Of a stretch of 64,000 nt of DNA, positions 5,755-59,277 are shown piece by piece (position 1 is the first letter of the stretch; the number at the start of each line of letters is the position of its first letter). The stretch spans positions 32,505 through 96,504 of the forward strand of contig CAIRNR010000006.1 of assembly GCA_903879985.1 (NCBI GenBank), written 5' to 3'. Position numbers and translations under genes: made by a program. This stretch comes from an uncultured candidate division WWE3 bacterium. Lineage in GTDB: Bacteria; Patescibacteriota; WWE3; UBA101185; UBA10185. The notes under the pieces were generated by a model. It saw only the letters and a program-made list of their open reading frames with translations. It was not told the origin of the DNA and did no database searches.

Positions 5755-5831
5755 GGGCGGTTAGCTCAGTTGGTTAGAGCGCCACATTGACATTGTGGAG
5801 GTCATAGGTTCAATTCCTATATCGCCCACCA
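5755..5831 (+). tRNA. tRNA-Val (anticodon GAC)
   Basis: The cloverleaf was folded by hand. Acceptor stem GGGCGGT/ATCGCCC, D-stem GCTC/GAGC, anticodon stem CCACA/TGTGG with loop TTGACAT, T-stem ATAGG/CCTAT with a TTCAATT loop, and a 3' CCA. An upstream TAGAAT -10-like element is present. Confidence 0.85.
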
Positions 5832-5948
5832 TGAATTAATTATAGGGTCAGTTATTTCCACTTTATCTTTTACTAACCACAAGTCGGCTTGTCGCTATAA
5901 TATAATTGTTCTACCAGAATCACTCCTATATAGGCAGAGAGCAACGTT

Positions 5949-5961
5949 ACTAGGTATAATC
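5949..5961 (+). promoter_or_regulatory. Promoter-like -10 (AGGTATAAT) upstream of the first island gene
   Basis: ttactaggtataatc lies about 8 nt before ATG 5969. A second TATAAT occurs at about 5897. Confidence 0.25.
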
Positions 5962-5968
5962 TAATCAA

Positions 5969-6490
5969 ATGAAAACTTTAACAACCAACACAACTGAACT
6001 AGATAAAAACTCCATATCCCTCGCAGGAGAATTTGCCGTTCTTTCCCAATTAGCACTACGAGGATACGACGCAAATTTAACTCTTGGGCATACAAAAGGT
6101 GTTGATATTCTTATCTCTAATCCTAAAACAAATAAAATGTTTAAAATGGAGGTTAAAACCTCCTATAAAAATGTTCCTACGACATATAAATTATTTGGTC
6201 ATTGTTTAGCCTGGGTAATGGGAGAGAAAAACGAAAATATAGCCGATCAAAATTTATTCTACTGCTTTGTTAATATAGAACATCCTGATTATAAATTCCG
6301 ATTCTTCATAATACCAAGTGCTGTGGTAGCAAAATATGTGAAAGAGCAGCATCAATATTGGATTTCAACAAGGACAGAAGATGTTGAAACTACAACAATG
6401 CGCCAATTTAGAATCGGACTGGAAGAAACGAAATACAACATAGATACGCCATTAGCAAGAGACTACGAAGATATGTGGGACCTTAGTTAG
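5969..6490 (+). CDS. Hypothetical protein with a YraN/Hjc-like PD-(D/E)XK nuclease signature
   Basis: GEFAVLSQLALRGYDANLTLGHTKGVDILIS...MFKMEVKTS reproduces the UPF0102/Holliday-junction-resolvase pattern GE..A..L..GY...D-I/L...hEVKt. Confidence 0.35.
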   Translation: MKTLTTNTTELDKNSISLAGEFAVLSQLALRGYDANLTLGHTKGVDILISNPKTNKMFKMEVKTSYKNVPTTYKLFGHCLAWVMGEKNENIADQNLFYCFVNIEHPDYKFRFFIIPSAVVAKYVKEQHQYWISTRTEDVETTTMRQFRIGLEETKYNIDTPLARDYEDMWDLS

Positions 6491-6580
6491 TAAAACAGTA
6501 ATAATCAGATACTCCCTAACACATTCTTCAGATAATTTAACTTCATATAAAGCCCAAAAGAAAAGGAATACAATTTAACT

Positions 6581-6778
6581 GTGAAAATAACCTTCCAAAT
6601 CGATCCTCAATACGACTACGATATGGTGTTACATATGTTGCGAGGAAAAGATTGGCAAAATAGGGCTAAACGCATGGGTTTAGATTTCTCTTTGGTTGAA
6701 AAAATTAATCAGGCAACCGGCACCGATATGTGTATTTTACTACAGACTAATCCTGCACAAAAAGGCAGCTATATCTAA
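6581..6778 (+). CDS. Hypothetical small protein
   Basis: ORF only; no recognisable motif. Confidence 0.2.
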   Translation: MKITFQIDPQYDYDMVLHMLRGKDWQNRAKRMGLDFSLVEKINQATGTDMCILLQTNPAQKGSYI

Positions 6779-6812
6779 TTATTTATACTAAAGATATCCG
6801 TTAACTCATGTT

Positions 6813-7616
6813 TTGTTGCCAGATGACACAAACCCCACTATAGACTATCCTATAATCAACATGTCCGAATACTACAACAACCAAAGAACACCAAAAAACT
6901 GCTACACAAAAGGCCAAACCGAACCATTTAAACTAAGCCGCTCCAAAATAGACAGCTTCCTCAAATGCCCCCGCTGCTTCTACATCGACCGCGTACTAGG
7001 CACAGGACAACCTCCGGGATTTCCATTTGCATTAAACAGTGCGGTAGACCATCTATTAAAACTAGAATTCGATATTCATAGGGCAGCTGGCTCAAAACAC
7101 CCACTAATCGAAAAATATGGTGTTGATGCAATACCTGCAGCTCACAAAGACTTAAATATATGGCGTGAAAACTTTAAAGGCGTTCAATTTCTACACAAAC
7201 CAACAAATTTATATGTATTTGGAGCCATAGATGACCTCTGGATCAACTCTAAAGGCGAATACATAGTTGTAGACTACAAATCCACAAGTAAGGACGAAGA
7301 AATAACAACATTAAATAAAGATTGGCAGGACGGCTATAAAAGACAAATGGAGGTTTATCAATGGTTGCTAAGACAAAATGGTTATAAGGTTTCGGAGACC
7401 GGTTACTTTGTATATTGTAACGGCGACACCGACAAAGCTGCCTTTGATGCAAAACTTGAGTTTGATATTACCTTGATTCCTTATGTTGGGGATGATAGTT
7501 GGATTGAAAAGGTTCTATTTGATATTAAAAAGTGCTTGGAGTCGGATGTGTTACCGGCCAGCGGTGAGGATTGTGATTATTGCGCATATTTTTATGCTAG
7601 GAAGGGACACGAATGA
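6813..7616 (+). CDS. Cas4-like / RecB-family PD-(D/E)XK nuclease with four Cys (probable Fe-S cluster)
   Basis: N-terminal CPRC, GAIDDLWINSKGEYIVVDYKS (D...E-hDYK), RQMEVYQWLL (QxxxY) and C-terminal CDYCAY. A possible internal start is MSEYYNN at 6861. Confidence 0.6.
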   Translation: MLPDDTNPTIDYPIINMSEYYNNQRTPKNCYTKGQTEPFKLSRSKIDSFLKCPRCFYIDRVLGTGQPPGFPFALNSAVDHLLKLEFDIHRAAGSKHPLIEKYGVDAIPAAHKDLNIWRENFKGVQFLHKPTNLYVFGAIDDLWINSKGEYIVVDYKSTSKDEEITTLNKDWQDGYKRQMEVYQWLLRQNGYKVSETGYFVYCNGDTDKAAFDAKLEFDITLIPYVGDDSWIEKVLFDIKKCLESDVLPASGEDCDYCAYFYARKGHE

Positions 7617-8119
7617 CTGAAATAACAATGTTTGCACCATCAGAAGACTTAATCTTTAACAAAGATATAAACGCTTTAAAAGAAAGAACTCGCCGCGGAA
7701 TCATGTGTATCTTAGGCCGAAAATTAGAAGATCCTAAAAATGAGTACTGGGTTAATTACTGCGTATGCATAAAGAACAATTACTTTATACAAATAATGAC
7801 AACAGAAAAAGAAGATGGGTTATTAATAGAACTAAGCAGCAGCCATTATTCTTCAGGCAGACTAAATCAAGCTAAGCTAGACATTATTTCAAGTTATGGC
7901 TATGAATTTGGAAATAAAATGAATCCAAACTTTCATAAAACCGTAACATTAACCCCGGACTTATTGTTCGAATTAGGTGACGAACTAACCGACATAATGT
8001 ATCGCGTCTTTGACCTTGAACAGCATCAGCCATTGAAGATTGAGTATGATCAGGATGTTTATCGGGCACCTTCACCATTTGCATCACGTTTATTTGGTTG
8101 GTTAAGAGGTATTAAATGA
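7613..8119 (+). CDS. Hypothetical protein (operon member)
   Basis: 4-nt ATGA overlap with the upstream gene; no known motif. Confidence 0.4.
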   Translation: MTEITMFAPSEDLIFNKDINALKERTRRGIMCILGRKLEDPKNEYWVNYCVCIKNNYFIQIMTTEKEDGLLIELSSSHYSSGRLNQAKLDIISSYGYEFGNKMNPNFHKTVTLTPDLLFELGDELTDIMYRVFDLEQHQPLKIEYDQDVYRAPSPFASRLFGWLRGIK

Positions 8120-8754
8120 ACCCAAACAACAAAACACTTTGCGCAACATGCAGCGGATTATTACCAGAAAACAAATGGCGACCTCGCCCAATAAACGAAT
8201 GGCGTGAAGTCATTTTATCCAAAGTATACAAATACGAAAACAACGACACCGATCCTAGATACGCCATATTCTCAAATGTCGCCTACAACCTTCAGTATTT
8301 AGAGTACTTACATAAATGCCTAGAAGAACAATATTTAACATCTGTTATTAGATCACAACTAGTAAAAACATTTACCTTAACATCTTCCCAAATTATTGAA
8401 TGCCTTTTGTATATCAAACTGCTTGATATGAAAGTAAACGAAAGCGAGATTTGGGAGTTTTCTAGAGCTTTGAAAATTGCCGAGCAAAAAAACGCGTACG
8501 GCCTTGGACCAATGTTTTATAAAAACGAATTGAAGAAAATTAAAGAGCTTAGAAATAAAGTTCATTTACAAACTTCTGAGGGTATCGCCGATGCTGATTA
8601 CGCTGTGTTTGCAAAAATTGAAGTGTTAAACGAAGTCAAAAAGATTTTGTTTAGTTTCATCCAAAAGTGTCTTTCGTTGCCAACGCCAACTATGAATGAA
8701 GTTTTTTATTTTTTGTTGCCTCTTGAGGATTATTTGCATTCGAGGAAGGATTAA
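8116..8754 (+). CDS. Hypothetical protein with an N-terminal CxxC (operon member)
   Basis: 4-nt ATGA overlap with the upstream gene; CATCSG near the N-terminus. Confidence 0.4.
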   Translation: MNPNNKTLCATCSGLLPENKWRPRPINEWREVILSKVYKYENNDTDPRYAIFSNVAYNLQYLEYLHKCLEEQYLTSVIRSQLVKTFTLTSSQIIECLLYIKLLDMKVNESEIWEFSRALKIAEQKNAYGLGPMFYKNELKKIKELRNKVHLQTSEGIADADYAVFAKIEVLNEVKKILFSFIQKCLSLPTPTMNEVFYFLLPLEDYLHSRKD

Positions 8755-8759
8755 AAACT

Positions 8760-9686
8760 ATGAAAAATTATTATAGAGTAATGTTAGGTCAAAAAAGCAT
8801 TTATGCTAAAGAAGCCTTTGAGGGTAACTTTATTGGAGCAGGATGGTTAGAAGATATTGATTTTACACATAAATTTCCGGATAACTGGCGCGAATTTAAC
8901 AAAAAATACATTCCTATCTACATAGAAGAGAACCCAGATAAAACAAAAGTTGCAGCCGGATTGGCCTGTGGGATGCTCTATACAATAACTAAAGGTATTC
9001 TTGTGGGTGATATTGTTTTATGTCCAGATGGTAAAGGAAACTACCTTGTAGGTGAAGTAATAGGTGAATATGAATATTTTAAGGGTGCGAATTTACCACA
9101 TAGACGAAAAGTTAGATGGTATCAAGATACGCTATCTCGAGATGAAATAAGTGAATCACTTAAGAATTCCGCTGGAAGCATTGGTACATTAAGTAATATT
9201 TCCAAATACGGAGCCGAAATTGAAGCTTTAATTTCGGGTAACCGTCCAGCTTCCATAATCTCTACGGACGAAACAATAGAAGATCCAAGCCTTTTTGCAC
9301 TTGAAAAACACTTAGAAGACTTTTTGGTACAAAATTGGCACCACACGGAACTTGGGCAACACTACGATATTTATTCAGAAGACGGAGAAATAGTAGGTCA
9401 ACAATACCCAAGCGACACCGGTCCAATTGACATTTTAGCTATAAGTAAAGATAAAAAAGAAATCCTTGTTGTAGAACTTAAAAAGGGAAGAGTAAGTGAT
9501 GTTGTAGTAGGTCAAATTCAAAGATACATGGGTTATGTTAAAGATGAATTAGCTGAAGAGAACCAAACAGTTAAAGGGGTTATTATAGGCTTTGAAGATG
9601 ATGTAAAGATACACAGAGCGTTATCTGTTGCACCCAACATTGATTTTTATACATATAAGATTCATTTTAAGTTAGAGAAAAAGTAA
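8760..9686 (+). CDS. Two-domain protein: N-terminal possibly PUA/EVE-like domain plus a C-terminal NucS/DUF91-like PD-(D/E)XK nuclease domain
   Basis: The C-terminus LEKHLEDFLVQNWHHTELGQHYDIYSEDGEIVGQQYPSDTGPIDILAISKDKKEILVVELKKGRVSDVVVGQIQRYMGYV fits E...D(IDIL)...ELK...Q..RY. The N-terminus has GAGW...ILVGDIVLCPDGKGNYLVGEVIGEYEY, which suggests a PUA-like fold. Confidence 0.5.
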   Translation: MKNYYRVMLGQKSIYAKEAFEGNFIGAGWLEDIDFTHKFPDNWREFNKKYIPIYIEENPDKTKVAAGLACGMLYTITKGILVGDIVLCPDGKGNYLVGEVIGEYEYFKGANLPHRRKVRWYQDTLSRDEISESLKNSAGSIGTLSNISKYGAEIEALISGNRPASIISTDETIEDPSLFALEKHLEDFLVQNWHHTELGQHYDIYSEDGEIVGQQYPSDTGPIDILAISKDKKEILVVELKKGRVSDVVVGQIQRYMGYVKDELAEENQTVKGVIIGFEDDVKIHRALSVAPNIDFYTYKIHFKLEKK

Positions 9687-9759
9687 TTATGGTGGATAAC
9701 GATGTCAGCTTGCTTAATATAAGAAATTTCAGAAATCATTTGGTATATAATGAAGCAGC

Positions 9760-10899
9760 ATGTTAGAAAACAATATTATCAACTCATTTAATGAATTTTT
9801 AACTTACTACGACGCATCCTCAAAGGATGAGCTTTGGAAAAATCAAAGCATAATTTTCCATAATTACTGGACAAGCAAAATCTTAAACAACAGTGATGAA
9901 TTAAACGACTTCGAAACTGATGAAATTGTTAAAATATTAGACAGAAACGGAAAAGGTAATACACACTCTAGTGATGCCATAGCCAAGGCTATGATACCTC
10001 AAGGCGCCTGGAGAAGGATGTTTAATGAAATTAAAAGCGAAGCTAGACTAAAGGAATTATTGAACAATATCTTCTCTGAAAACGATAACTCCAAGAAAAT
10101 TGAATATGTAAATCAATTATATAAATACAACGAAAAAAATAGAAATAGCCTAACAGGTAATAGCGGTACAGCAATAAATTGTATGGTTGCAGCTTGGGAC
10201 CCATTTAAAAACATAAGTGCTGTTTCTCTCAAGCATAGAAAGAAAATTTTTGAATTTCTGCAACTATCGGGGCTTGATTTTGATGAAGATACTCAAGGAA
10301 AAAAGATTGTAGTATCCAACGAACTAATATTAGGTTTTTTTGAAAACAAGGGCATAACAGCATCGGCAAGAACAATTTCTGCCTTCCTCTACAGTGACCC
10401 CATTAAAAAATTATGGGAAATAGACACAGGTGACGAAATTGTTCCTTATACAGAAGAAATACCCATATCCGAAACTGAGGGAACGACAAATCCTTCAATA
10501 TTTTATATGGAAAGCCAACTTGAGGATTTCATTATAGAAAACTGGGACAATACAGAATTAGGTAAAAGTTACGATTTGATTGAAGAAGAGGGTGAAATTG
10601 TAAGCCAACAATATCGCACACCAATAGGCATAATTGATATATTAGTTAAAGAAAAGAAAACAGACCGCTATGTCGTGATTGAACTAAAGAGGGATCAAAC
10701 TAGCGACTCTACTGTAGGTCAGTTAGCACGATACATGGGTTGGATTGAAGAAAATAAAGGCAAAGGCTTGCCACCCAAAGGTATCATCATCACTGCCAAA
10801 TATGACGAGAAATTGTTTTATGCACTTAAAAAAATCAAGGACACCGAAATTTATTTATACGAGGTTAAGTTTAAATTAAACGAATTCAAAAAATCCTAA
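9760..10899 (+). CDS. Two-domain protein: unknown N-terminal domain plus a C-terminal NucS/DUF91-like PD-(D/E)XK nuclease domain (paralog of the previous gene's C-terminus)
   Basis: MESQLEDFIIENWDNTELGKSYDLIEEEGEIVSQQYRTPIGIIDILVKEKKTDRYVVIELKRDQTSDSTVGQLARYMGWI aligns motif-for-motif with the C-terminus of 8760..9686. Confidence 0.5.
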   Translation: MLENNIINSFNEFLTYYDASSKDELWKNQSIIFHNYWTSKILNNSDELNDFETDEIVKILDRNGKGNTHSSDAIAKAMIPQGAWRRMFNEIKSEARLKELLNNIFSENDNSKKIEYVNQLYKYNEKNRNSLTGNSGTAINCMVAAWDPFKNISAVSLKHRKKIFEFLQLSGLDFDEDTQGKKIVVSNELILGFFENKGITASARTISAFLYSDPIKKLWEIDTGDEIVPYTEEIPISETEGTTNPSIFYMESQLEDFIIENWDNTELGKSYDLIEEEGEIVSQQYRTPIGIIDILVKEKKTDRYVVIELKRDQTSDSTVGQLARYMGWIEENKGKGLPPKGIIITAKYDEKLFYALKKIKDTEIYLYEVKFKLNEFKKS

Positions 10900-11024
10900 G
10901 AAACTTTAAAATTTAGTTACAACCATTTATAGATCCGTAAAACAGCATAATCAATGTAATTTTCTTATTCCAATGCTACCATTACTAGTATCGCTAATTG
11001 TTTTGTACACAATAGGATCACTTT

Positions 11025-12140
11025 ATGGCCATAGTGTATAACCAAATAGGTTCATTAACTGAGTTATTAAACAGATGTAGAGAAAAAGGGATTACATTCG
11101 ACTCCATGGAGCAGGTAGAGGAATTTTTAAACAGCTACCATGAAAATATAAAAGTCGCCGCCGAAAAAGCAGAAGAAAACTTCAATAAAACCATAGGAGA
11201 GGCTAACAACACACTGAATATCGCCGTGGAAAATTATGAGGTAGAAAAGAAAGCTATAGTTGCTTTAATTGATAACAAATTAGCAGCTTTGTCTGTTGCA
11301 ATAGCTACGTCACAAAGTACCACCACAAATCCTATTAGCAAAATATTGAATAATCTACGTGTTAATAAATATACACAGGCGCGAGTCAAACTAGAAAACA
11401 ATTATGATGCTGAAATCGAAAAACATCTTAAAATATTCACTGAAGAAATCAACAATGCAAGATCAGACCTTAACTATAAACTTATTAATCACGATATCTT
11501 GACCACTAAATATAAAGACGACTACATAAACAAGCTACAGCATACTTATGAAATTTTAATGGAAAATGGTGCTTTCCTTTACGGTGCTAAAGGCGAACAC
11601 ATGGCCTTAATAGAGCTTAAAAAACTCCCTGACACATATACTGTTATTAACAATGCCTGCTTCAACTTTCGACCGGGAATTCATGATAAAGGAAACAATG
11701 ATTGGATATATTCCGCACAAATTGATCACGTTGTAGTAGGACCAACAGGTATTTTTCTTATAGAAACTAAGAATTGGCGCCAAGAATCTACAACCAATAA
11801 AGATTTCTTTTCTCCGGTTAAACAAATTAATCGCTCGGGACTTGCTATATACGTGCGTCTAAATAATGCAATTAAAGATGGATATTTAATAAGCTTCAAC
11901 ATTCAGTGGGGGACACAAAAGATAACCATGAAAAAGTTGGTATTATTAACAGGTTACAGTCAAAGCGACGAATACGATTTTGTTAAATTAGTAACATTAA
12001 GGGATTTAAGATCGTATATTACTTACGGTAAACTCGTTTATAACGAGACACAAATTAAGGATATTGTGAGGTTCTTTCGTGAAGAGGGCTACGGGAATAA
12101 TACTTCAAGGTCAATCGGAATGGGCGATTTTAGGAGGTGA
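11025..12140 (+). CDS. NERD (nuclease-related domain) protein with an N-terminal coiled-coil
   Basis: GAKGEHMALIELKKLPDTYTVINNACF...QIDHVVVGPTGIFLIETKNW matches the NERD signature G.KGE...L..L......V.N.......IDHVVV...GIF.IE.K. Confidence 0.55.
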   Translation: MAIVYNQIGSLTELLNRCREKGITFDSMEQVEEFLNSYHENIKVAAEKAEENFNKTIGEANNTLNIAVENYEVEKKAIVALIDNKLAALSVAIATSQSTTTNPISKILNNLRVNKYTQARVKLENNYDAEIEKHLKIFTEEINNARSDLNYKLINHDILTTKYKDDYINKLQHTYEILMENGAFLYGAKGEHMALIELKKLPDTYTVINNACFNFRPGIHDKGNNDWIYSAQIDHVVVGPTGIFLIETKNWRQESTTNKDFFSPVKQINRSGLAIYVRLNNAIKDGYLISFNIQWGTQKITMKKLVLLTGYSQSDEYDFVKLVTLRDLRSYITYGKLVYNETQIKDIVRFFREEGYGNNTSRSIGMGDFRR

Positions 12141-12234
12141 TAAAGTAGAATAAATACAGCCCTGCTCCCTAAACTTTATAACGATTATTGAAAAAATTGC
12201 GGAATACACTGAAACAAGAAATTCACTTGCAGAA

Positions 12235-12546
12235 TTGTTACTTAAAGGAATTTTTGTTGGTGTAGTTGAAGATATATGCAGAGGAACATTCACTATAGAA
12301 AAGCTAAAAGAAAATCGATACGTATCATCACGTTTCGTTAAAAAGTGGGAAACTATTTCAAGAGAGTATACCTGTAACCCTAAGATTTCAATTCCATACG
12401 AGGTTAAGGAATTAATCAACCAACAGGCTGAAGTTACTACTTTAAACGACAATATTTTTAAGGATTTTTATGTTACTGAAGAACTTCTTGAAAAACGCAC
12501 TAAACACTTGGTAACGATAAGCTACTATCTACATCTTGCTATGTAA
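12235..12546 (+). CDS. Hypothetical small protein (weak)
   Basis: ORF only; an ORF on the opposite strand overlaps it. Confidence 0.15.
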   Translation: MLLKGIFVGVVEDICRGTFTIEKLKENRYVSSRFVKKWETISREYTCNPKISIPYEVKELINQQAEVTTLNDNIFKDFYVTEELLEKRTKHLVTISYYLHLAM

Positions 12547-12588
12547 TACAGACGCATCCCACGTGAAAAACTATAATCTGGTAAAACT

Positions 12589-13206
12589 CTAATTCATTAC
12601 CTCTGCTTCAAAATAAACCTGCTTCTTGCATTTATCGCATAAAACAAGCCAACCCATTCTCCCGGCCAATTTCCACCAAGTCCAATCGGGACTCTTAAAA
12701 TAAATCACATCAAGTGAATCTAATCCTCTATTACAACCAGTACATTTTATGTCTTTGTGTTTTGGATCATTTTTAAAATCGTCTGCAGTTCTATAAACAT
12801 GCTTTGACGATTTTTCGTTTAGACAAGCAGAAACATCAGGCCATGGAAAAAATACGGTGTGATCGTAATCCTTATATTTAATGGCTTCCTTTTCATAGAA
12901 TTCTTTTATCTGTTTTTCGTCATGGGCTTTTGCTAACTGGCGCTGGTTTTTTTCCTCTTCCCAGGATTTTATAAAACTGGTTACACCTTCTGCGGTTACC
13001 AATACTTCCCTTGGTTTATTTCCACGAGACGGTCCAACAAACCCAGCTTCTTCCATTTCATCGATAATCCTGGCAGCTCGTGCGGATCCTATCGAGAGTT
13101 TTCTTACTAAAAGGTTTGGAGAAGCTTTTGCTGCGGAAACAACTATATTTAAGGCTAAATCGAATAACTCATCATAAGCATCAAACATGGAGTAATTATA
13201 GTACAA
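12589..13206 (-). CDS. FtsK-gamma-like winged-helix domain protein with a C-terminal Zn-ribbon (CxxC...CxxC)
   Basis: DELFDLALNIVVSAAKASPNLLVRKLSIGSARAARIIDEMEEAGFVGPSRGNKPREVLVT closely resembles the FtsK gamma (KOPS-binding) domain. The C-terminus has CTGCN...CDKCKK. Confidence 0.5.
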   Translation of the reverse strand: MYYNYSMFDAYDELFDLALNIVVSAAKASPNLLVRKLSIGSARAARIIDEMEEAGFVGPSRGNKPREVLVTAEGVTSFIKSWEEEKNQRQLAKAHDEKQIKEFYEKEAIKYKDYDHTVFFPWPDVSACLNEKSSKHVYRTADDFKNDPKHKDIKCTGCNRGLDSLDVIYFKSPDWTWWKLAGRMGWLVLCDKCKKQVYFEAEVMN

Positions 13207-13227: not shown

Positions 13228-13779
13228 TTAATTAGCCGACGTAGCCTTTTTAGCATTATACTCAACAGCAAACTGACTAAACTTCTCTCTGATACTTTTC
13301 ATATCGTATATTCCTAAATCCCATGAATCAAGCCCTCTTGCGTAGACTACATAGTTTGGATATTTCGTATTAAATTTTAGGTTACCATTCATTGGGTCTA
13401 CACCCCACCATTCATCTTTTATAAAACATTCAGCAAAAACATGTCCTCCGACTCTATCAGGATTGTCTGAAAAATAAGATTTAGAGATTACTTCAACATA
13501 CTTTGTGGGTATACCTTTGGCCCGTGCAATAGCTACAAACACAAGAGCAAAATCGGTGCAGCCAGTTGCAAAACCATCGTTTATTATTTGATCTGCGGTT
13601 CTTGTTCTAAAGATATCGTTTTTTTCAATACCATCTGGAGCAGGGTATTTAATATTTTTATTAACCCAGCGTAAAGCTTTAACAACAAATTCGAAATCAG
13701 TAACTTCAATAGAGTTAACTATTTCTGTAATTTTTGGTGTTATTTCAGTTTGTTTTCCTGCCTTTAAAAAGTTTTCCAT
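13228..13779 (-). CDS. Transglutaminase-like superfamily cysteine peptidase-like protein
   Basis: GCTDFALVFVAIARAKGIPTKYV...GGHVFAECF...WWGVDP gives a Cys-His-Asp arrangement. The N-terminal MENFLKAGKQTE is shared with the next gene. Confidence 0.5.
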   Translation of the reverse strand: MENFLKAGKQTEITPKITEIVNSIEVTDFEFVVKALRWVNKNIKYPAPDGIEKNDIFRTRTADQIINDGFATGCTDFALVFVAIARAKGIPTKYVEVISKSYFSDNPDRVGGHVFAECFIKDEWWGVDPMNGNLKFNTKYPNYVVYARGLDSWDLGIYDMKSIREKFSQFAVEYNAKKATSAN

Positions 13780-13794
13780 AGCAGCAGTTTAGCC
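13743..13794 (-). repeat. 52-bp repeat copy A: 15 nt of 5'-UTR plus the first 37 nt of the CDS
   Basis: tttcAgtttgttttcctgcctttaaaaagtTttccatagcagcagtttagcc is near-identical (2 mismatches) to 14316..14367. Confidence 0.8.
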
Positions 13795-13841
13795 TATACT
13801 AAATAGTTCGAATATCCCAACAGGAATCTTACCAAGAAAAC

Positions 13842-14351
13842 CTAATTCTCTTTGAAACACTTAGCCATCTCGACCATTTCAATCTTTTCGTTATCCAAAG
13901 GAAACTCAATACTCTTAACTTTTTTAAAACCAAGGGACTCGTAAAAGGGAACAGCGTTTAAGGTTGCAAATAAAGAAATCTTTTCTTTGCGGTTATTTAT
14001 AAAGTCTCTCTCAATAAAAGAGTATAGAAACTTTCCATAACCTTTACCTTGAAAACTTGGATCTATTTGGATTTGATAAAGCTCTTCGCCGTCAAGGTCA
14101 TATTGGCAAAATCCAACAGTGCTGTTTGCTTCCTTTAGGACAAGCCACTTAGTGTTGCTAAACTGATCTAACACATTTTTTTCGTTTATTTGGTTTACCC
14201 ATTCTTTGACAACGTTTTCTGAGTAAGTTTTTGAATTAGTTTTTAAGATACAGTCTTTGTGAATGTTAACAATATCAGCAACGTCTTCTTTGGTTGCTTC
14301 TAAAAGATTGACCATTTCGGTTTGTTTTCCTGCCTTTAAAAAGTCTTCCAT
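13842..14351 (-). CDS. GNAT family N-acetyltransferase
   Basis: QIDPSFQGKGYGKFLY...LNAVPFYESLGFK acetyl-CoA binding motifs. The N-terminus MEDFLKAGKQTEM is shared with the previous gene. Confidence 0.6.
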   Translation of the reverse strand: MEDFLKAGKQTEMVNLLEATKEDVADIVNIHKDCILKTNSKTYSENVVKEWVNQINEKNVLDQFSNTKWLVLKEANSTVGFCQYDLDGEELYQIQIDPSFQGKGYGKFLYSFIERDFINNRKEKISLFATLNAVPFYESLGFKKVKSIEFPLDNEKIEMVEMAKCFKEN

Positions 14352-14367
14352 AGCAGCAGTTTAGCCC
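14316..14367 (-). repeat. 52-bp repeat copy B: 15 nt of 5'-UTR plus the first 37 nt of the CDS
   Basis: See copy A. Confidence 0.8.
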
Positions 14368-14485
14368 AAAGTCGCGGGTGTGTAAAAACCAAGACATGCA
14401 AACCGCACTGCTGGTTTGGAATACTAGCCAATACATGCTATAACTACGCCAACAAATCGAAACAATAGAGAGGAGAAAAAATACT

Positions 14486-15820
14486 ATGGACACGCTGAAG
14501 CCCAAAGATTGGCTTTTTCTTATTCCATTTCCAAACCAACCGTTTTTCTTGCTATACGCTCCCTTGCATGGCCTGGTAACAAAGTTATCTCCAGCAGGAG
14601 CTGAACAGCTGCAAAATTTGCTAGATACTGTTTCGGCTGGTGGTAGTAAAGCGGAATTTAACCCAGTTATGGTCAAGTTTCTTACAGATAATAATTTACT
14701 GTCGCTTCCGGCACACTGGGCTATACCCAATAAAGTATTGCCGGGTGAACAAGGAATTACGGTATCTTTGACCAATGACTGTAATCTTCGCTGTATTTAC
14801 TGCTACGCGGGGGCCGGTTGCGATACGATGACAATTCCCTATGACGTAGCAAAGAACGCAATAATTTATGGTTTGCGTTTAGCAAAGGCACGTGGAAGAG
14901 CCCATTTTAGGCTAACATTCCACGGGGGCGGTGAATCACTAAAGCGCAAAGATCTGCTCAAAAAATGTATCATTTTTGCACTGAAAGAAGCTAAGGCGCT
15001 TGGGCTAACGTTGCATGTGAGCATTGTAACTAATGCAACGCTTATTTCTGAAAGTTTTGCACGGTGGTTAAAAGCACACAGCGTTGATAACATCACCGTT
15101 TCACTAGATGGTGTAGCACCGGTACAGGATTTACAACGCCCTCTGGTAAACGGTAAAGGATCGTTTAAAGCCGCCATGTTGGGAATATCTAACCTCAAAA
15201 AAGTTGGCTTAGATTTCTCTATTCGTGCGACTGTTACCAGAAAGAGTGTGGAGGAAATGCCGAATTTTGTAAGATTCCTTGCACACGAAGTTCTTAATGG
15301 TGTAAACGGACTCGTACATTTCGAGCCTTTATCACTTTGTGGAAAGGCACGTGGAGCTACCCATTTAGACGTTGATCCGCAGCTCTTTGTAAAATATTAC
15401 ACTGAAGCGCGCAAGGTCGGGTTAGAGCTGGGTATTCGCATTGTCTGCACGTTAGATACTTTCCGCAAGGATAAATTGCAATTCTGTGGAGCAAGTACAG
15501 GTACCATGTTTTGTGTATGTCCGGATGGTTCCATTTCAGGGTGCTCGCGCGTTACAAAAAAGCAAGATCCCGGCGCGGAGTTGTTTTTCTATGGCAAATT
15601 CAAACCCGCCATAAAGCAACCTGAAATAGACCAAGATGCACAAGCACTTATAGCAAAACATGGTCAATTACCTGAAAAGCTATGTTCAACATGCTTCGCA
15701 AGGTGGAATTGCCAAGGATTCTGTCCGATTTCAAGATTCCTGGGCGAAGATACCTTTCAAGAGTCTTGTATAATTGTGAAGCAGATGCTTCTACAAGACA
15801 TGTTGTTAGAATTCTTATAG
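14486..15820 (+). CDS. Radical SAM / SPASM-domain peptide maturase
   Basis: CNLRCIYCYA (CxxxCxxC), GGGE-like HGGGESL, and a C-terminal Cys cluster CSTCFARWNCQGFCP (SPASM/twitch). Confidence 0.8.
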   Translation: MDTLKPKDWLFLIPFPNQPFFLLYAPLHGLVTKLSPAGAEQLQNLLDTVSAGGSKAEFNPVMVKFLTDNNLLSLPAHWAIPNKVLPGEQGITVSLTNDCNLRCIYCYAGAGCDTMTIPYDVAKNAIIYGLRLAKARGRAHFRLTFHGGGESLKRKDLLKKCIIFALKEAKALGLTLHVSIVTNATLISESFARWLKAHSVDNITVSLDGVAPVQDLQRPLVNGKGSFKAAMLGISNLKKVGLDFSIRATVTRKSVEEMPNFVRFLAHEVLNGVNGLVHFEPLSLCGKARGATHLDVDPQLFVKYYTEARKVGLELGIRIVCTLDTFRKDKLQFCGASTGTMFCVCPDGSISGCSRVTKKQDPGAELFFYGKFKPAIKQPEIDQDAQALIAKHGQLPEKLCSTCFARWNCQGFCPISRFLGEDTFQESCIIVKQMLLQDMLLEFL

Positions 15821-15836
15821 AAAGGAGAAAATAACA

Positions 15837-16016
15837 ATGGGTACCGATTTCACGCAAGTTGTTCGATGGCAACCTCGGTTAGCTGTAAACGCAAACTGCT
15901 CAGCTGAGACATGTCCCTCTGATGGAAAATGCTCTTCAGATGACAGTTCCGGTCATTCTTGCAGCGGCAACACTAACGACCCGTGTCCGCACGACAGTTC
16001 CTGTCCAAAAGACTAA
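15837..16016 (+). CDS. 59-aa Cys-rich putative RiPP precursor peptide (not in the ORF track)
   Basis: An AAAGGAGAAAA RBS lies 6 nt before the ATG, immediately after the rSAM stop. It translates to MGTDFTQVVRWQPRLAVNANCSAETCPSDGKCSSDDSSGHSCSGNTNDPCPHDSSCPKD, with six Cys in C-x-x-(D/E/N) repeats. Confidence 0.55.
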   Translation: MGTDFTQVVRWQPRLAVNANCSAETCPSDGKCSSDDSSGHSCSGNTNDPCPHDSSCPKD

Positions 16017-16033
16017 CGACACCTGTCACAAAC

Positions 16034-16082
16034 AAAGGGACTACTTCTTATATACTTAGAAGTAGTCCCTTTACCTTTTTTT
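16034..16082. terminator. Rho-independent terminator between convergent genes
   Basis: Perfect 15-bp stem AAAGGGACTACTTCT / AGAAGTAGTCCCTTT with an 8-nt loop, followed by ACCTTTTTTT. Confidence 0.65.
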
Positions 16083-16101
16083 AATGAAAAATTGTGTTAA
16101 C

Positions 16102-16983
16102 TTAATATTTTATTTTATTGAGATAGTCTGTTGTCAATTTTTCGGGCTTATCTTTTTCCAAAACCTCTAAATACTTTGCAGGCAATAGCATATCTAAATC
16201 AGTTCCTACTAATGAATAATTCTGTATGTTTTCTTCTGAATGACTTAAATACACTACAAGTGCACGGATTATGGATTCCTCTACATAAGTACTTGGATCC
16301 GCGTATGATCCCAAAACTTCTTCTGGCATTTTTTTGAGATAATCAACTACATCTTCTGGAATGGTTAAGGTACATTTATCTAAATAGCTGTGAGTTAATT
16401 CGTGCAGTATTTGACTTAAATTTATTCCTTCTTTTTTCCATCCAACCATAATGTAATAACCATCTTTAGTTTTTATACATTTTCCTGATGTATCCCAATT
16501 TCTAGTTAAATAAAAAGTCTTAATATCAGGTTCGAAGTCGAAGTGATTTTTAAAAAGATTTTCTATATCACTAAAACGTTCTTCAAATTCGTTTAGGCGC
16601 TTATCAAAATCCGGTTCGTATTGTTTCCACAGATTTTGTAATTCCGGTAATAAAGATATTCGGTCAACATAATCTAAAACTTCTTTGGCAGGAAGCATAA
16701 ACTTACCGTTATCATCATAGCCAGCGGAGTTAAATATTCCCATAAGATAATGGTAGCTATGCATGGGCATATCCAGTTTTGGAGTTCCTGATTTCTCAAG
16801 TATTGCTACAACCTTATCTTTGAGTTCAGAAACCCAATCTTTGTAGCCAATAGTGCGATTATTAGCATAAAACATAGCACAGTACATGTGGAAATGTTTT
16901 TGTAACTTAACTGTTTTAAGTTCCATACCACCATGATACAACAAATGTGGGGTTTTGAACGATAAGCCCACCTCCGGCACCAA
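16102..16983 (-). CDS. Hypothetical HExxH zinc-metallopeptidase-like protein
   Basis: LHELTHSYLD motif; no other recognisable domain. Confidence 0.4.
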   Translation of the reverse strand: MVPEVGLSFKTPHLLYHGGMELKTVKLQKHFHMYCAMFYANNRTIGYKDWVSELKDKVVAILEKSGTPKLDMPMHSYHYLMGIFNSAGYDDNGKFMLPAKEVLDYVDRISLLPELQNLWKQYEPDFDKRLNEFEERFSDIENLFKNHFDFEPDIKTFYLTRNWDTSGKCIKTKDGYYIMVGWKKEGINLSQILHELTHSYLDKCTLTIPEDVVDYLKKMPEEVLGSYADPSTYVEESIIRALVVYLSHSEENIQNYSLVGTDLDMLLPAKYLEVLEKDKPEKLTTDYLNKIKY

Positions 16984-17681: not shown

Positions 17682-17782
17682 TAGGCAGGTACTGTAAGGA
17701 ATAAGGGAATTAAGCTGTAACAACGCAAAAGTTCCAAACACACAATACGCAAATAAAATACCAGTGTTATCATTAAAACCAG

Positions 17783-18163: not shown

Positions 18164-18420
18164 CCTAGTCTTCCTAAAGAGTTTTTTAATCGATGACTCT
18201 GCAAAAGTTCCAAACATCCTCCATAATCTCCCACCAGGCTTTTCAGCTTGGTATACCAACATTATTTTTATATACCCAACTAGGAATTTAGACCTATCCA
18301 CGACCAAACCACTACCCTATAGTTTGACTATTTACCCATTTTATCCTATAATTACATCATAAATCGTTATTAAACCGCACAATTATGACGGCTAATCAAA
18401 AATAAAAAGGGAGATAAAAA

Positions 18421-18715: not shown

Positions 18716-18843
18716 CACAAGAGGCAAACAGTAGAAATCCTTACTGCTTTGCCTCCTAACTCAAGTTTATTTTTTTAAAGTAGATTTAAGTTAGGAAGTT
18801 TAACCGCATAAATGACTGCGGAATCATAATCAAAGGAGACGAC
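18716..18843 (+). repeat. Repeated structured intergenic element, copy 1 (hairpin, T-run and conserved leader)
   Basis: GAGGCAAACAGTAG...TACTGCTTTGCCTC hairpin, then CTAACTCAAG...TTAAGTTAGG, then CCGCA...TGCGG just before the AAAGGAGA RBS. Paralogous to 19325..19457 with compensatory changes. Confidence 0.6.
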
Positions 18844-19324: not shown

Positions 19325-19457
19325 AGTGTAACAAGGGACAAACAGTAGCACAATTTTACTGCTTGTCCCCTAACTTAAGTCTATTTACCAAAGTAGGTTT
19401 AAGTTAGGAATTTAATCGCATACGATCTGATGCGAAATTATAAAAGGAGAGACAGCT
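19325..19457 (+). repeat. Repeated structured intergenic element, copy 2
   Basis: GGGACAAACAGTAG...TACTGCTTGTCCCC, then CCTAACTTAAG...CTTAAGTTAGG, then TCGCAT...ATGCGA before the AAAGGAGAG RBS. Confidence 0.6.
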
Positions 19458-19709: not shown

Positions 19710-19756
19710 AGGGTCTTTGACAGTTAAAATGCTGCTAAAGACCCTGATTTTTTTTA
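19710..19756 (+). terminator. Rho-independent terminator
   Basis: AGGGTCTTT...AAAGACCCT stem followed by GATTTTTTTTTATT. Confidence 0.55.
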
Positions 19757-19815
19757 TTCTTTAACAACACAAAAATTCCATTGACACTAGAAATTAAATA
19801 GAACTAAACTAAGAT

Positions 19816-34243: not shown

Positions 34244-34708
34244 ATGAAACTGCCTAAAAATGAGAAAGCTTTTACACTTATTGAACTTTTACTCGTAGTC
34301 GCAATTATTGCCACGTTAGCCGTAGTCGTATTTGTTGCTTTGAATCCTGCACAAAGATTAAAGGATTCCAAGGATGCCAGAAGAACTTCTGATATAGACA
34401 CAATACTGTCAGCCGTTCATGAATACATAATTGATAATAAAGGTGCATTACCAACATCTTCACCACAAGCAGAAGTCCAGCTAGGTACATCAGCGTCAGG
34501 TTGTGCAATATCAACTGGTGGTTGTTCTGCAGTAGCTGCAGCTTGCTATGATATGTCTACACTGTTAAATAAATACCTAAAATCTATGCCTATAGATCCA
34601 ACAGGAACTGCCGCAGGTACAAAGTACACAATCACAGTTGATGCAAATAACATTGTAACCGTTAAAGCTTGCGCGGCTGACACAGGTACAATTGTAGTTT
34701 CTAGATAA
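34244..34708 (+). CDS. pilA: Type IV major pilin, paralog 1
   Basis: MKLPKNEKA|FTLIELLLVVAIIATLAVVVFVALNPAQRLKD. Ala rather than Gly at -1. The C-terminal half carries 4 Cys. Confidence 0.7.
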   Translation: MKLPKNEKAFTLIELLLVVAIIATLAVVVFVALNPAQRLKDSKDARRTSDIDTILSAVHEYIIDNKGALPTSSPQAEVQLGTSASGCAISTGGCSAVAAACYDMSTLLNKYLKSMPIDPTGTAAGTKYTITVDANNIVTVKACAADTGTIVVSR

Positions 34709-34736
34709 ATTTAGAAATCTAAACTCGAATACATTT

Positions 34737-34767
34737 AAGGGTGCTGGGACAACAAACCAGCGCCCTT
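34737..34767 (+). terminator. Hairpin downstream of pilin 1 (weak T-tract)
   Basis: AAGGGTGCTGG...CCAGCGCCCTT with one G-U pair. Confidence 0.3.
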
Positions 34768-34849
34768 AATTATTCTCAGAAAAAATAAAGTTGACACTTG
34801 TTTTATACAGATCTATCCTTAACATAGTAAAAAAATTTTTCTATTTTAG

Positions 34850-35314
34850 ATGAAACTGCCCAATAACCAAAAAGCCTTTACACTTATAGAACTTCTTTTA
34901 GTCGTGGCAGTAATTGCTACCCTTGCCGTTATAGTATTTCTTGCGTTAAACCCAGCACAAAGACTGAAAGATGCAAAAGACGCTAGAAGAACTACTGACG
35001 TTGACCAGATTTTATCAGCAATACATGAATATGTTATTGATACAAAAGGTACATTTCCTGTAAGTTCGCCACAGGCCGAGGTACAACTTGGTACTGCAAC
35101 TTCTGGGTGCGGTATTGTTACCGGAGGATGCAATGCGCTATCAACAGCATGCACCGACTTATCCGTAAAACTCGTAAAATACCTAGACGTCATGCCAATA
35201 GATCCAACCGGCACACAATATGTTACAAAATACACTGTAATAGTTGATGCTAACAATATTGTAACCGTTAGAGCCTGCGCAGCCGATAATGGAAACATAT
35301 CCGCCTCAAGATAA
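34850..35314 (+). CDS. Type IV major pilin, paralog 2 (most divergent)
   Basis: MKLPNNQKA|FTLIELLLVVAVIATLAVIVFLALNPAQRLKD. Own TTGACA promoter at 34791. Confidence 0.7.
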   Translation: MKLPNNQKAFTLIELLLVVAVIATLAVIVFLALNPAQRLKDAKDARRTTDVDQILSAIHEYVIDTKGTFPVSSPQAEVQLGTATSGCGIVTGGCNALSTACTDLSVKLVKYLDVMPIDPTGTQYVTKYTVIVDANNIVTVRACAADNGNISASR

Positions 35315-35349
35315 ATACAAATATTAACTCACTTCCTACTGGATTTGAA

Positions 35350-35378
35350 TTGACATCTATCCCTTTAAGCCCTAGACT
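35350..35378 (+). promoter_or_regulatory. Sigma70-like promoter of pilin 3 (TTGACA-17-TAGACT)
   Basis: The hexamers were read directly from the sequence. Conserved 5'-UTR AGTAGATATTTTTTAAGGAG. Confidence 0.35.
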
Positions 35379-35410
35379 TTATGCAGTAGATATTTTTTAA
35401 GGAGAAAATA

Positions 35411-35875
35411 ATGAAACTGCCCAAAAATGAAAAAGCTTTTACATTAATTGAGCTTTTGTTAGTTGTCGCAATTATTGCAACGTTAGCCGTAGTAGTTTTC
35501 GTGGCTTTAAATCCAGCACAAAGACTTAAGGATTCTAAAGACGCAAGAAGAACCTCAGACGTAGATACTATATTGTCTGCAGTTCACGAATATATAATTG
35601 ATAACAAGGGTGTGTTACCAACCACATCACCACTTAACGAAATCCAGCTCGGTACATCCGCAGTAGGTTGTGCAATAGGTACAGGAACCTGCTCAGCCAA
35701 CGGAACCGCTTGTTTAGATTTAACGTCCACTTTAAACAAATACCTAAAATCTATACCTATCGATCCAACCGGAGTAGTAGGTGCTACAAAGTACACAATG
35801 GCTGTTGATTCCAACAACATTGTAACTGTCAAAGCCTGCGCTGCAGATACGTCAACAATATCAGCGTCTAGATAA
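35411..35875 (+). CDS. Type IV major pilin, paralog 3
   Basis: The N-terminal 70 aa are nearly identical to paralog 1. The central/C-terminal region diverges. The C-terminal NNIVTVKACAADT motif is conserved. Confidence 0.7.
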   Translation: MKLPKNEKAFTLIELLLVVAIIATLAVVVFVALNPAQRLKDSKDARRTSDVDTILSAVHEYIIDNKGVLPTTSPLNEIQLGTSAVGCAIGTGTCSANGTACLDLTSTLNKYLKSIPIDPTGVVGATKYTMAVDSNNIVTVKACAADTSTISASR

Positions 35876-58855: not shown

Positions 58856-58928
58856 TTTCTCCTCCTTCATCTATTCGTACACGGTTTATATCAATTAAGG
58901 AAATAATAGCATGGTTTTAAAAAGAGTT

Positions 58929-59230: not shown

Positions 59231-59277
59231 TTTCTCCTCCTTCATCTAAGATTTTGGTTTACTGGTAAAATAGTAGC

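What the first reader, a model, noticed from the sequence alone, without database searches (positions are those of the whole stretch)
13743..14367. Two adjacent, functionally unrelated genes share a near-identical 52-bp cassette spanning the 5'-UTR and first 12 codons
Seen in sequence: 13743-13794 and 14316-14367 differ at 2 of 52 positions. On the coding (minus) strand each is ggctaaactgctgctATGGAARACTTTTTAAAGGCAGGAAAACAAACYGAAAT. This gives a transglutaminase-like Cys-peptidase (13228-13779) and a GNAT acetyltransferase (13842-14351) the same N-terminus ME(N/D)FLKAGKQTE, with no further similarity. Neither has an SD sequence. Possible explanations: a recombination or duplication scar from promoter/start capture or cassette swapping of enzymatic effector modules behind a constant start; a shared translational-regulatory element acting on the first codons; or a short N-terminal targeting tag. 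The pair sits divergently next to the RiPP cluster.
Basis: seen in the sequence. Interest (0 to 1): 0.6.

Follow-up and report, generated by a model that had tools for sequence, protein, structure and literature searches.

The report
Duplicated gene start left by insertion
A 53-base piece holding the promoter -10 box, start codon and first 12 codons of a protease-like gene was duplicated when an acetyltransferase gene was inserted into it, so both genes now begin identically; this is a one-off evolutionary scar (promoter and start capture), not a new kind of system.

Summary
The repeat is real. It is 53 nt long (13742-13794 and 14314-14366), matches at 51 of 53 positions, and the copies are 572 nt apart. 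Nine distinct, independently assembled contigs carry both copies with the same two differences.

The shared N-terminus ME(N/D)FLKAGKQTE belongs to the transglutaminase-like (TGase) family. The motif persists in homologs down to about 40% identity, Gln10 is invariant, and the segment is ordered in the AlphaFold model. GNAT homologs lack it and start near what is Met13 here.

None of the TGase relatives' loci searched by tblastn has a GNAT, and none of 50 tested has a second copy of its own 5' end. Sequence upstream of copy A is orthologous to the relatives' TGase promoter (TTTACA, 17 nt, TA(A/G)ACT, 6-7 nt, ATG). Sequence downstream of copy B is the orthologous TGase coding sequence.

So 519 nt (a promoterless GNAT plus 47 nt) were inserted at TGase codon 13, duplicating the segment from the -10 box to codon 12. 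The missing SD is explained: the -10 box sits 6 nt from the ATG, the signature of leaderless transcription, which is common in this Patescibacteria genome.

The event occurred in one lineage only. The targeting-tag and recurrent cassette-swapping readings are not supported. Interest is low to moderate.

The parts
14314..14366 (-). Copy A of the 53-nt repeat. On the coding strand it reads GGC + TAAACT (-10 box) + GCTGCT + ATG + 11 codons + AT. It lies at the native position behind the TGase promoter and now heads the GNAT ORF.
   Evidence: The sequence upstream of it aligns with the TGase upstream regions of relatives.
13742..13794 (-). Copy B of the 53-nt repeat. It heads the TGase ORF and is followed by orthologous TGase coding sequence. 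The native -35 box is absent upstream of it.
   Evidence: The promoter scan finds no -35/-10 pair here.
13795..14313 (-). The 519-nt insert between the repeats: the GNAT coding sequence from the G of its probable native ATG (Met13 of the fused ORF), its stop codon, and 47 nt of 3' flank. It has no terminal inverted repeats, no hairpin and no other gene.
   Evidence: unique in the window; no inverted repeats at the ends; fold z-score -0.49.
13842..14351 (-). GNAT acetyltransferase ORF (169 aa): 12 TGase-derived residues fused in frame to a 157-aa GNAT core. The probable native start is Met13 at 14313-14315, which straddles the junction.
   Evidence: Pfam hits. The 30 homologs are mostly 150-166 aa (two longer) and lack the tag.
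13228..13779 (-). Transglutaminase-like Cys peptidase (183 aa), intact. C74 and H113 are invariant and D128 nearly invariant. The N-terminal motif FLxxGxQTxIT is native to the family.
   Evidence: AlphaFold model with pLDDT 94.9. Foldseek top hit is 3isr, a putative cysteine protease, at E 2.7e-8.
14358..14386 (-). Native TGase promoter, now driving GNAT: -35 TTTACA, 17-nt spacer, -10 TAAACT, then 6 nt to the ATG (leaderless geometry). The -10 hexamer (14358-14363) lies inside copy A. The -35 box lies outside the repeat.
   Evidence: Promoter scan. The same geometry is conserved in L013, L014, L015, L020 and L022.
13786..13791 (-). Duplicated -10 hexamer TAAACT, 6 nt upstream of the TGase ATG. 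It could act as a -10-only promoter for TGase.
   Evidence: Read directly from the sequence. Genome-wide, -10-like boxes peak at 6 nt from start codons and there is no -35 consensus.
14486..16016 (+). Context: the divergent radical SAM gene (444 aa) and a 59-aa Cys-rich peptide. These belong to a separately acquired module with higher GC. They replace the precursor and rSAM/SPASM pair found next to TGase in relatives.

Best explanation
The 53-nt repeat is a target duplication left by the insertion of a promoterless GNAT gene into the 5' end of a transglutaminase-like (TGase) peptidase gene. This happened in one Patescibacteria lineage.

Ancestral state (shown by relatives): the TGase gene lay divergent to a RiPP-like precursor and radical SAM pair. 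It was transcribed from a TTTACA-17-TA(A/G)ACT promoter whose -10 box lies 6-7 nt from the ATG, so the mRNA is probably leaderless.

The event (inferred): 519 nt (the GNAT ORF plus 47 nt) entered after codon 12 and 2 more nt of the TGase gene. The segment from 3 nt before the -10 box to that point was copied to both sides. The AT of the GNAT's Met13 codon comes from the repeat, which fits a 2-nt microhomology junction and therefore illegitimate or template-switch recombination.

The consequence (inferred): GNAT captured the full native promoter and the leaderless start. It is made with 12 foreign N-terminal residues. TGase stays intact behind its copied -10 box and start codon. It is expressed from that -10-only promoter, by read-through from GNAT, or both, since no terminator lies between the genes.

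The missing SD reflects leaderless organisation, which is common in this genome. It is not a special element.
For: Repeat and population evidence:
- The repeat is 51/53 identical with 0 matches expected by chance.
- Nine independent contigs carry the same structure and the same two differences.

The tag is native to TGase:
- The motif M-E-x-F-L-K-x-G-x-Q-T-x-I-T persists across homologs down to about 40% identity. Q10 is invariant and L5 nearly so.
- Residues 1-10 are ordered in the model, with pLDDT 92.

The tag is foreign to GNAT:
- The 30 homologs are mostly 150-166 aa, begin near Met13, and none carries the motif.

Chimeric anatomy:
- Upstream of copy A is the conserved TTTTACA -35 box shared with five relatives. 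Copy B lacks it.
- Downstream of copy B the sequence matches the relatives' TGase codons 13 onward, whereas copy A runs into GNAT.

Derived state:
- tblastn found no GNAT in any of the TGase relatives' loci then held (flanks up to 3-5 kb), including the 88%-identical L020/L021.
- None of 50 loci has a second copy of its own 5' end.

Leaderless geometry:
- The promoter scan finds TTTACA-17-TAAACT at 14386..14358.
- Across 52 window genes, -10-like hexamers peak at a 6-nt spacer (11 genes), then 8 nt (5) and 9 nt (4), against a background of mostly 0-2 per position.
- This matches the published leaderless signature of a Pribnow box 6-8 nt from gene starts (PMC6028130).

Other points:
- No terminator lies between GNAT and TGase.
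- Polarity of the two differences: ACT in copy B matches the relatives, and GAC in copy A is one step from the relatives' GAA. This suggests about one substitution per copy since the event.
Against: - No transcription start site or protein N-terminus has been measured. Leaderless transcription, translation of the 12-aa fusion and the activity of copy B's -10-only promoter are all inferred from sequence.
- No GNAT-free ('empty site') variant with the identical TGase protein was seen among the 17 contigs read that carry it. The ancestral state is inferred from relatives no closer than 88% identity.
- The donor of the GNAT and the molecular mechanism are unknown. A 53-nt duplication is much longer than classical transposon target duplications.
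- Two of four GNAT relatives examined sit next to a radical SAM gene. The GNAT's presence here beside a radical SAM cluster may therefore be functional rather than accidental.
Confidence: 0.8

Rival explanations
1. Campbell-type integration. A small circular or linear DNA carrying the GNAT together with a stretch homologous to the TGase 5' end recombined by homologous recombination. This produces the insert flanked by direct repeats of the homology segment. On this view the two mismatches are pre-existing donor-versus-recipient differences rather than later mutations.
For: The structure (repeat, insert, repeat) is what a single crossover with a circle gives. The two copies differ at 2 positions in all nine contigs, which is compatible with two different parental alleles. 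The longest perfect stretches are about 21-25 nt, close to the minimal length for RecA-type recombination (the minimal length is from general knowledge; the stretches are read).
Against: It requires a donor in which the GNAT was already joined to the TGase 5' segment, and no such arrangement was found in any collection searched. The junction lies exactly at the GNAT start codon with a 2-nt overlap, which looks more like an illegitimate join. No integrase or mobile-element gene lies in or next to the insert.
Confidence: 0.12
2. The 53-nt unit is kept identical by selection or gene conversion because it works as a shared expression module or a shared peptide tag. The module would consist of the -10 box, a leaderless AUG and unstructured first codons that set the translation rate. 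The tag would co-localise or co-regulate the two enzymes with the neighbouring RiPP pathway.
For: The unit contains a -10 box at leaderless spacing. The first 50 nt of both putative mRNAs are almost unstructured, at -3.1 and -1.6 kcal/mol. The fusion is in frame. GNAT relatives are sometimes linked to radical SAM clusters, and TGase is widely linked to them.
Against: There are only two copies, in one lineage. In the TGase the 12 residues are an ordered, conserved part of the fold, not a detachable tag. No GNAT homolog has them. One of the two differences is non-synonymous (N/D), so the copies are simply drifting. There is no RNA family or structure.
Confidence: 0.06
3. Assembly artefact: a chimeric join or a mis-resolved repeat in a metagenome assembly.
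For: The window comes from a metagenome-assembled contig, and repeats can cause mis-joins.
Against: The identical arrangement appears in nine distinct contigs spanning both copies, from several samples and at least three assembly pipelines. The repeat (53 nt) is shorter than the k=141 of those contigs and shorter than typical reads. Both ORFs are intact and in frame.
Confidence: 0.01

Closest known systems
Insertion with flanking target duplication, giving promoter capture and a chimeric N-terminus (illegitimate or microhomology-mediated template-switch recombination)
   Same: A single foreign segment is bracketed by direct repeats of the target. The upstream repeat keeps the native upstream context and the downstream repeat keeps the native downstream context. 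There is a 2-nt overlap at one junction. The inserted ORF becomes expressed from the resident promoter as an in-frame fusion.
   Different: The duplication is long (53 nt). It happens to span exactly the -10 box, the start codon and 12 codons, so the interrupted gene remains whole. No enzyme or mobile element can be assigned to the event.
Transposon or IS target-site duplication
   Same: Direct repeats of target sequence flank an inserted segment.
   Different: From general knowledge, target-site duplications are usually 2-15 bp. Here the insert has no terminal inverted repeats and no transposase, and consists of one ordinary ORF.
Integron gene cassettes expressed from a resident promoter
   Same: A promoterless single-gene unit is placed behind a resident promoter, so the inserted gene depends on the host site for expression.
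   Different: There is no attC-like hairpin and no integrase among the neighbouring genes. The flanking repeats are copies of the target gene's own 5' end, not recombination sites. There is no array.
Leaderless genes of bacteria (GeneMarkS-2 'group C' pattern; PMC6028130)
   Same: A -10 (Pribnow) box lies 6-8 nt upstream of the start codon and there is no SD. The pattern is seen in many first-in-operon genes of this window and throughout the TGase family.
   Different: The group is described mainly for Actinobacteria and Deinococcus-Thermus. Here it is a sequence-based inference for a Patescibacteria genome, with no transcript data.

Membership tests
Transposon/IS insertion with target-site duplication | Short target duplication (about 2-15 bp) | tested here: not met
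   The duplication is 53 nt.
Transposon/IS insertion with target-site duplication | Terminal inverted repeats and a transposase (or MITE-like ends) in the insert | tested here: not met
   No inverted repeats at the ends of 13795-14313. The insert encodes only the GNAT.
Integron gene cassette | attC imperfect palindrome at the cassette 3' end | tested here: not met
   The GNAT 3' flank plus repeat folds no better than shuffles (z -0.49). No inverted repeat was found.
Integron gene cassette | Adjacent IntI integrase and attI site | tested here: not met
   The neighbouring genes are a radical SAM, an FtsK-gamma protein, NERD and NucS-like nucleases. No integrase domain appears in the Pfam hits for the surrounding genes. 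The rest of the window was not scanned for integrases.
Leaderless transcription unit | -10 box 6-8 nt upstream of the start codon, with no SD | tested here: met
   TAAACT is followed by 6 nt and then ATG in both copies, and neither has GGAG or AGGA. The same geometry is found in TGase relatives and as a genome-wide peak at a 6-nt spacer.
Leaderless transcription unit | Transcription start at or within a few nt of the A of the start codon | not testable with these tools
   This needs 5'-end mapping (dRNA-seq or 5' RACE, or a metatranscriptome).
Transglutaminase-like cysteine peptidase (PF01841) | Profile match above the curated cut-off, a conserved Cys-His-Asp triad, and a papain-like transglutaminase fold | tested here: met
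   PF01841 at 50.7 bits against a cut-off of 23. C74 and H113 are invariant and D128 nearly invariant. The model has pLDDT 94.9, and its best solved match is 3isr at E 2.7e-8.
GNAT N-acetyltransferase (PF13673/PF00583) | Profile match above the cut-off and a Q/R-x-x-G-x-G/A acetyl-CoA motif | tested here: met
   PF13673 at 62.8 bits and PF00583 at 41.7 bits. QGKGYGK is present in the translation.
N-terminal targeting or sorting tag | A detachable segment shared by unrelated proteins, not part of either catalytic fold, and recurring in the genome | tested here: not met
   The segment is a conserved and ordered part of the TGase. It is absent from GNAT homologs. There are only two copies in the window and none elsewhere in the searched collections.

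The most novel reading that the evidence does not exclude
The 53-nt piece may be a self-sufficient, portable 'leaderless expression unit': a -10 box, a transcription start that coincides with the AUG, and unstructured first codons. On this reading, genomes that transcribe many genes without leaders add a gene behind a promoter only if this unit is copied too. The insertion would therefore illustrate a general constraint or route for gene gain in leaderless genomes.

A related possibility is that the two repeats allow precise RecA-mediated loss of the GNAT. That would make the GNAT an on/off accessory of the adjacent RiPP locus and would switch TGase between a weak and a full promoter.
Probability: 0.1. 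Interest if true: 0.5.

Novelty: new member of a known kind. Interest (0 to 1): 0.25.

Why it matters
This is a clean natural example of how a promoterless gene becomes expressed. It lands inside the 5' end of a resident gene, takes over that gene's promoter and start codon, and the resident gene survives only because its -10 box, start codon and first codons were duplicated.

It also shows that in a genome with many probable leaderless genes the promoter and the start codon behave as one physical unit of about 20 nt. That matters for gene calling and start-site annotation in Patescibacteria:
- The GNAT's annotated 169-aa product is a chimera.
- The absence of an SD is not evidence against a gene.

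Beyond that, it is a lineage-specific scar, not a new mechanism or system.

Tried and rejected
- **Codon-degenerate pattern scans.** The tag pattern ATGGARRANTTYYTNAARNNNGGNAARCARAC found nothing in the metagenome collection. In species-representative genomes it found one hit, a Saccharibacteria MAG with an ordinary single-copy TGase. An exact 38-mer scan of viral contigs found nothing. No other genes carrying the unit were found.
- **Hidden RNA element.** No Rfam match at E<=1. There is no significant structure in the intergenic region plus repeat (z -0.49) or in the first 50 nt of either mRNA.
- **Second 'start capture' on the other side of the intergenic region.** I first thought the radical SAM gene's 5' UTR was homologous to the relatives' precursor-gene 5' UTR. 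Comparison with the radical SAM's own relatives shows that its start and about 50 nt upstream belong to the radical SAM module (L105). The idea was rejected. The resemblance is just a similar SD region.
- **Intragenomic source of the GNAT.** No second copy or remnant exists in the window.
- **The hairpin upstream of GNAT relatives.** GGGGTTAGA...TCTAACCCC, found upstream of GNAT relatives, is not present in the window.
- **GNAT ancestral and lost elsewhere.** Rejected because no relative's locus has a GNAT by tblastn, none of 50 tested has a second 5' copy, GNAT homologs lack the tag, and the structure is chimeric.

Full report
**1. The observation**

On the minus (coding) strand the sequence GGCTAAACTGCTGCT-ATG-GAA-RAC-TTT-TTA-AAG-GCA-GGA-AAA-CAA-ACY-GAA-AT occurs twice, at 14366..14314 and 13794..13742. 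That is 53 nt with 51 of 53 positions identical and a spacing of 572 nt. Shuffled sequence gives no match, and the 64-kb window has no third copy at up to 3 mismatches. Everything else in the description holds:
- TGase-like ORF at 13228-13779(-), PF01841.
- GNAT ORF at 13842-14351(-), PF13673/PF00583.
- The same first 12 residues apart from N/D at position 3.
- No other similarity between the two proteins, and no SD.
- A divergent radical SAM gene at 14486.

Exact-protein look-ups returned 17 contigs carrying each protein. Nine distinct contigs that span both copies, from several samples and pipelines, show the same two copies with the same two differences. A misassembly is therefore excluded.

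**2. Whose sequence is it?**

The 79 TGase homologs found by search show that the N-terminal motif (M)-E-x-F-L-K-x-G-x-Q-T-x-I-T is a native family feature retained down to about 40% identity. In a 35-sequence alignment, Gln10 is invariant and Leu5 nearly so. An AlphaFold model (mean pLDDT 94.9) places residues 1-10 in ordered structure with pLDDT 92. The fold is a transglutaminase-like cysteine protease; the best solved match is 3isr at E 2.7e-8.

The 30 GNAT homologs are mostly 150-166 aa. None carries the motif, and all start a few residues before the conserved 'I-x-I-x-K-A-x-K-x-D...IV-x-IHK-x-C' block. That position corresponds to Met13 of the window ORF. The segment therefore belongs to the TGase and is a graft on the GNAT.

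**3. Anatomy and ancestral state**

I fetched DNA around TGase relatives. The closest relatives are L020/L021 (88% identity), L014 (82%), L013 (77%), L022 (75%) and L015 (69%). In each, the TGase gene is directly divergent from a small precursor gene plus a radical SAM/SPASM gene, with nothing in between.

- tblastn finds no GNAT in any relative's locus, while a radical SAM gene is present in about 30 of them.
- None of 50 loci contains a second copy of its own TGase 5' end.

The alignment of 5' regions is diagnostic:
- Upstream of copy A the window shares the relatives' TTTTACA box and spacing. Upstream of copy B it does not.
- Downstream of copy B the window continues with the relatives' TGase codons 13 onward (AACACCAAAAATTACAGAAATA against TACACCTAAAATTACTGAAATA in L020). 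Downstream of copy A it runs into GNAT.

This is the signature of an insertion with duplication of the target. The 519 nt at 13795-14313 (the GNAT from the G of its ATG, its stop codon, and 47 nt of 3' flank) entered after codon 12 plus 2 nt of the TGase gene, and 53 nt of target now flank it.

The ATG of Met13 straddles the junction. The AT comes from the repeat (codon 13, ATA, in the TGase) and the G from the insert. This is compatible with a 2-nt microhomology join (read from the sequence; the mechanism is inferred).

The insert has no terminal inverted repeats, no hairpin, no second gene and no other copy in the window. At the two variable sites, copy B's ACT equals the relatives' state, and copy A's GAC is one step from the relatives' GAA. 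This suggests about one substitution per copy since the event (inference).

**4. Why there is no SD, and what the repeat contains**

The promoter scan finds one sigma-70-like site on the coding strand: TTTACA, 17 nt, TAAACT at 14386..14358. Its -10 hexamer lies inside the repeat, 6 nt from the ATG.

The same geometry (TTTACA, 17 nt, TA(A/G)ACT, 6-7 nt, ATG) is conserved in L013, L014, L015, L020 and L022. More distant TGase genes also carry TATAAT-like boxes, mostly about 6-8 nt before the start, with no SD.

Across 52 ORFs in the window, -10-like hexamers peak sharply at a 6-nt spacer (11 genes). Further genes have spacers of 8 nt (5) and 9 nt (4), against a background of mostly 0-2 per position. 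These promoters often carry an extended-10 'TGn' and show no -35 consensus. Other genes in the window, including some within operons, do carry a GGAG-type SD.

A Pribnow box 6-8 nt from the start codon is the published signature of leaderless transcription (Lomsadze et al. 2018, PMC6028130). So the repeat spans 3 nt upstream of the -10 box, the -10 box itself, the probable transcription start at the AUG, and 12 codons. Leaderless transcription is inferred here, not measured.

The 5' 50 nt of both putative mRNAs are essentially unstructured, at -3.1 and -1.6 kcal/mol. No Rfam family matches.

**5. Most likely working**

GNAT now sits behind the complete native TGase promoter. It is probably translated from the 5'-terminal AUG as a 12-aa fusion. 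The fusion is in frame, and Met13 has no good SD.

TGase remains intact behind a copied -10 box and start codon but without the native -35 box. No terminator-like site lies between the genes. TGase is therefore expressed by read-through, from the -10-only copy, or both. The latter is plausible in a genome whose promoters show no -35 consensus.

Both enzymes keep their catalytic motifs: C74, H113 and D128 in the TGase, and QGKGYGK in the GNAT. The exact recombination mechanism remains open. The candidates are template switching, staggered-break repair, or Campbell-type integration of a DNA already carrying the homology.

**6. Context**

The TGase is a conserved neighbour of RiPP-like radical SAM clusters, so a role as a peptide-maturation protease is a reasonable guess (inference).

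In the window the original partner cluster has been replaced by a different, GC-richer module: a 444-aa radical SAM, a 59-aa Cys-rich peptide and a 274-aa ORF. This module occurs in unrelated contexts elsewhere (L105 at 79% identity, L106 at 58%). Its homology begins about 50 nt upstream of the radical SAM ATG. The intergenic region is thus itself a mosaic.

Two of four GNAT relatives examined lie just downstream of a 421-aa radical SAM that is 29% identical to the window's. The GNAT may therefore be functionally tied to such clusters. This is suggestive, not shown.

**7. Comparison with known things, and verdict**

The feature behaves like an illegitimate insertion with target duplication that produced promoter capture and a chimeric N-terminus.
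- It is not a transposon target-site duplication: the repeat is too long, and there are no inverted repeats and no transposase.
- It is not an integron cassette: there is no attC and no integrase nearby.
- It is not a targeting tag or a regulatory RNA.

It is a tidy, lineage-specific example of a known kind of event. It has some didactic value for leaderless gene organisation and for annotating Patescibacteria gene starts. Interest is 0.25.

Noticed in passing
window 14431-16983; L105 6001-8412; L106 5001-7398: The radical SAM (444 aa), the 59-aa Cys-rich peptide (MGTDFTQVVRWQPRL...CPHDSSCPKD) and a divergent 274-aa ORF form a conserved three-gene module found in unrelated contexts (79% and 58% identical radical SAMs). 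In the window its GC is 0.435-0.50 for the rSAM and peptide genes (the 274-aa ORF is 0.334), against 0.34 for the neighbouring TGase and GNAT. It replaces the precursor and rSAM/SPASM pair that accompanies the TGase in relatives. Homology to L105 starts about 50 nt upstream of the radical SAM ATG.
   Followed up: partly
L013, L014, L015, L017, L020-L022 (upstream of the TGase gene): TGase relatives are divergently paired with a 47-48-aa precursor (MSGxAIVSAVxxELQ...GYDNYQYPDxGDSYxNDDxDDSP) and a 366-393-aa radical SAM (SPASM domain recorded for L015/L016). The repeated aromatic-X-(N/D) motifs resemble three-residue-cyclophane (triceptide) precursors. That resemblance is from memory and untested. 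The TGase may be the leader peptidase of this RiPP family.
   Followed up: partly
L100 1688-1723; L101 1045-1080; L104 643-676: Two GNAT relatives in different gene contexts share a perfect hairpin, GGGGTTAGA-N(16-18)-TCTAACCCC, 11-12 nt upstream of their ATG. It may be a terminator or a cassette boundary that travels with the GNAT. It is absent from the window.
   Followed up: partly
L102 2504-4483 (also the contig of P0083): GNAT relatives at 59-60% identity lie directly downstream of a 421-aa radical SAM (29% identical to the window's), with a small Cys-containing ORF in between. This hints that this GNAT clade is a recurrent accessory of radical SAM peptide clusters.
   Followed up: partly
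whole window (for example 5969, 9760, 13188(-), 17001, 52339(-), 56988, 59278): Many first-in-operon genes have a -10-like box 6-9 nt before the start codon, often with an extended-10 TGn, no SD and no -35 consensus. This is a leaderless-type organisation in a Patescibacteria genome. The FtsK-gamma gene next to the TGase has TATAAT, 6 nt, ATG.
   Followed up: partly
window 58793-58873 and 59168-59248: An 81-nt direct repeat (77% identity) covers the 5' ends plus the SD and upstream region (…CATTTTCTCCTCCTTCATCTA) of two adjacent small minus-strand genes. They are probably tandem paralogs that share their start regions.
   Followed up: no
window 17710-17740, 18186-18216, 19754-19784; and 18777-18800, 19390-19413: Short conserved motifs (31 nt in three copies; 24 nt in two copies at 92% identity) recur upstream of several small genes of unknown function in the 17-20 kb stretch. 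They may be shared promoter or operator sequences.
   Followed up: no
window 34244-35875: Three tandem paralogous 154-aa genes (69-77% DNA identity over the first 300 nt).
   Followed up: no
L013 6671-7203: The TGase ortholog in the Saccharibacteria MAG CAYZRJ010000012 is split into two ORFs (83 and 104 aa). This is either a frameshift pseudogene or a sequencing error.
   Followed up: no
window 5755-13206: A tRNA-Val gene (5755-5831) is followed by a run of nuclease-type genes: a PD-(D/E)XK protein, two NucS_C/YhcG-like proteins, a NERD protein and an FtsK-gamma-domain protein. This looks like a variable or defence-type island, and it ends at the TGase/GNAT/RiPP locus.
   Followed up: no
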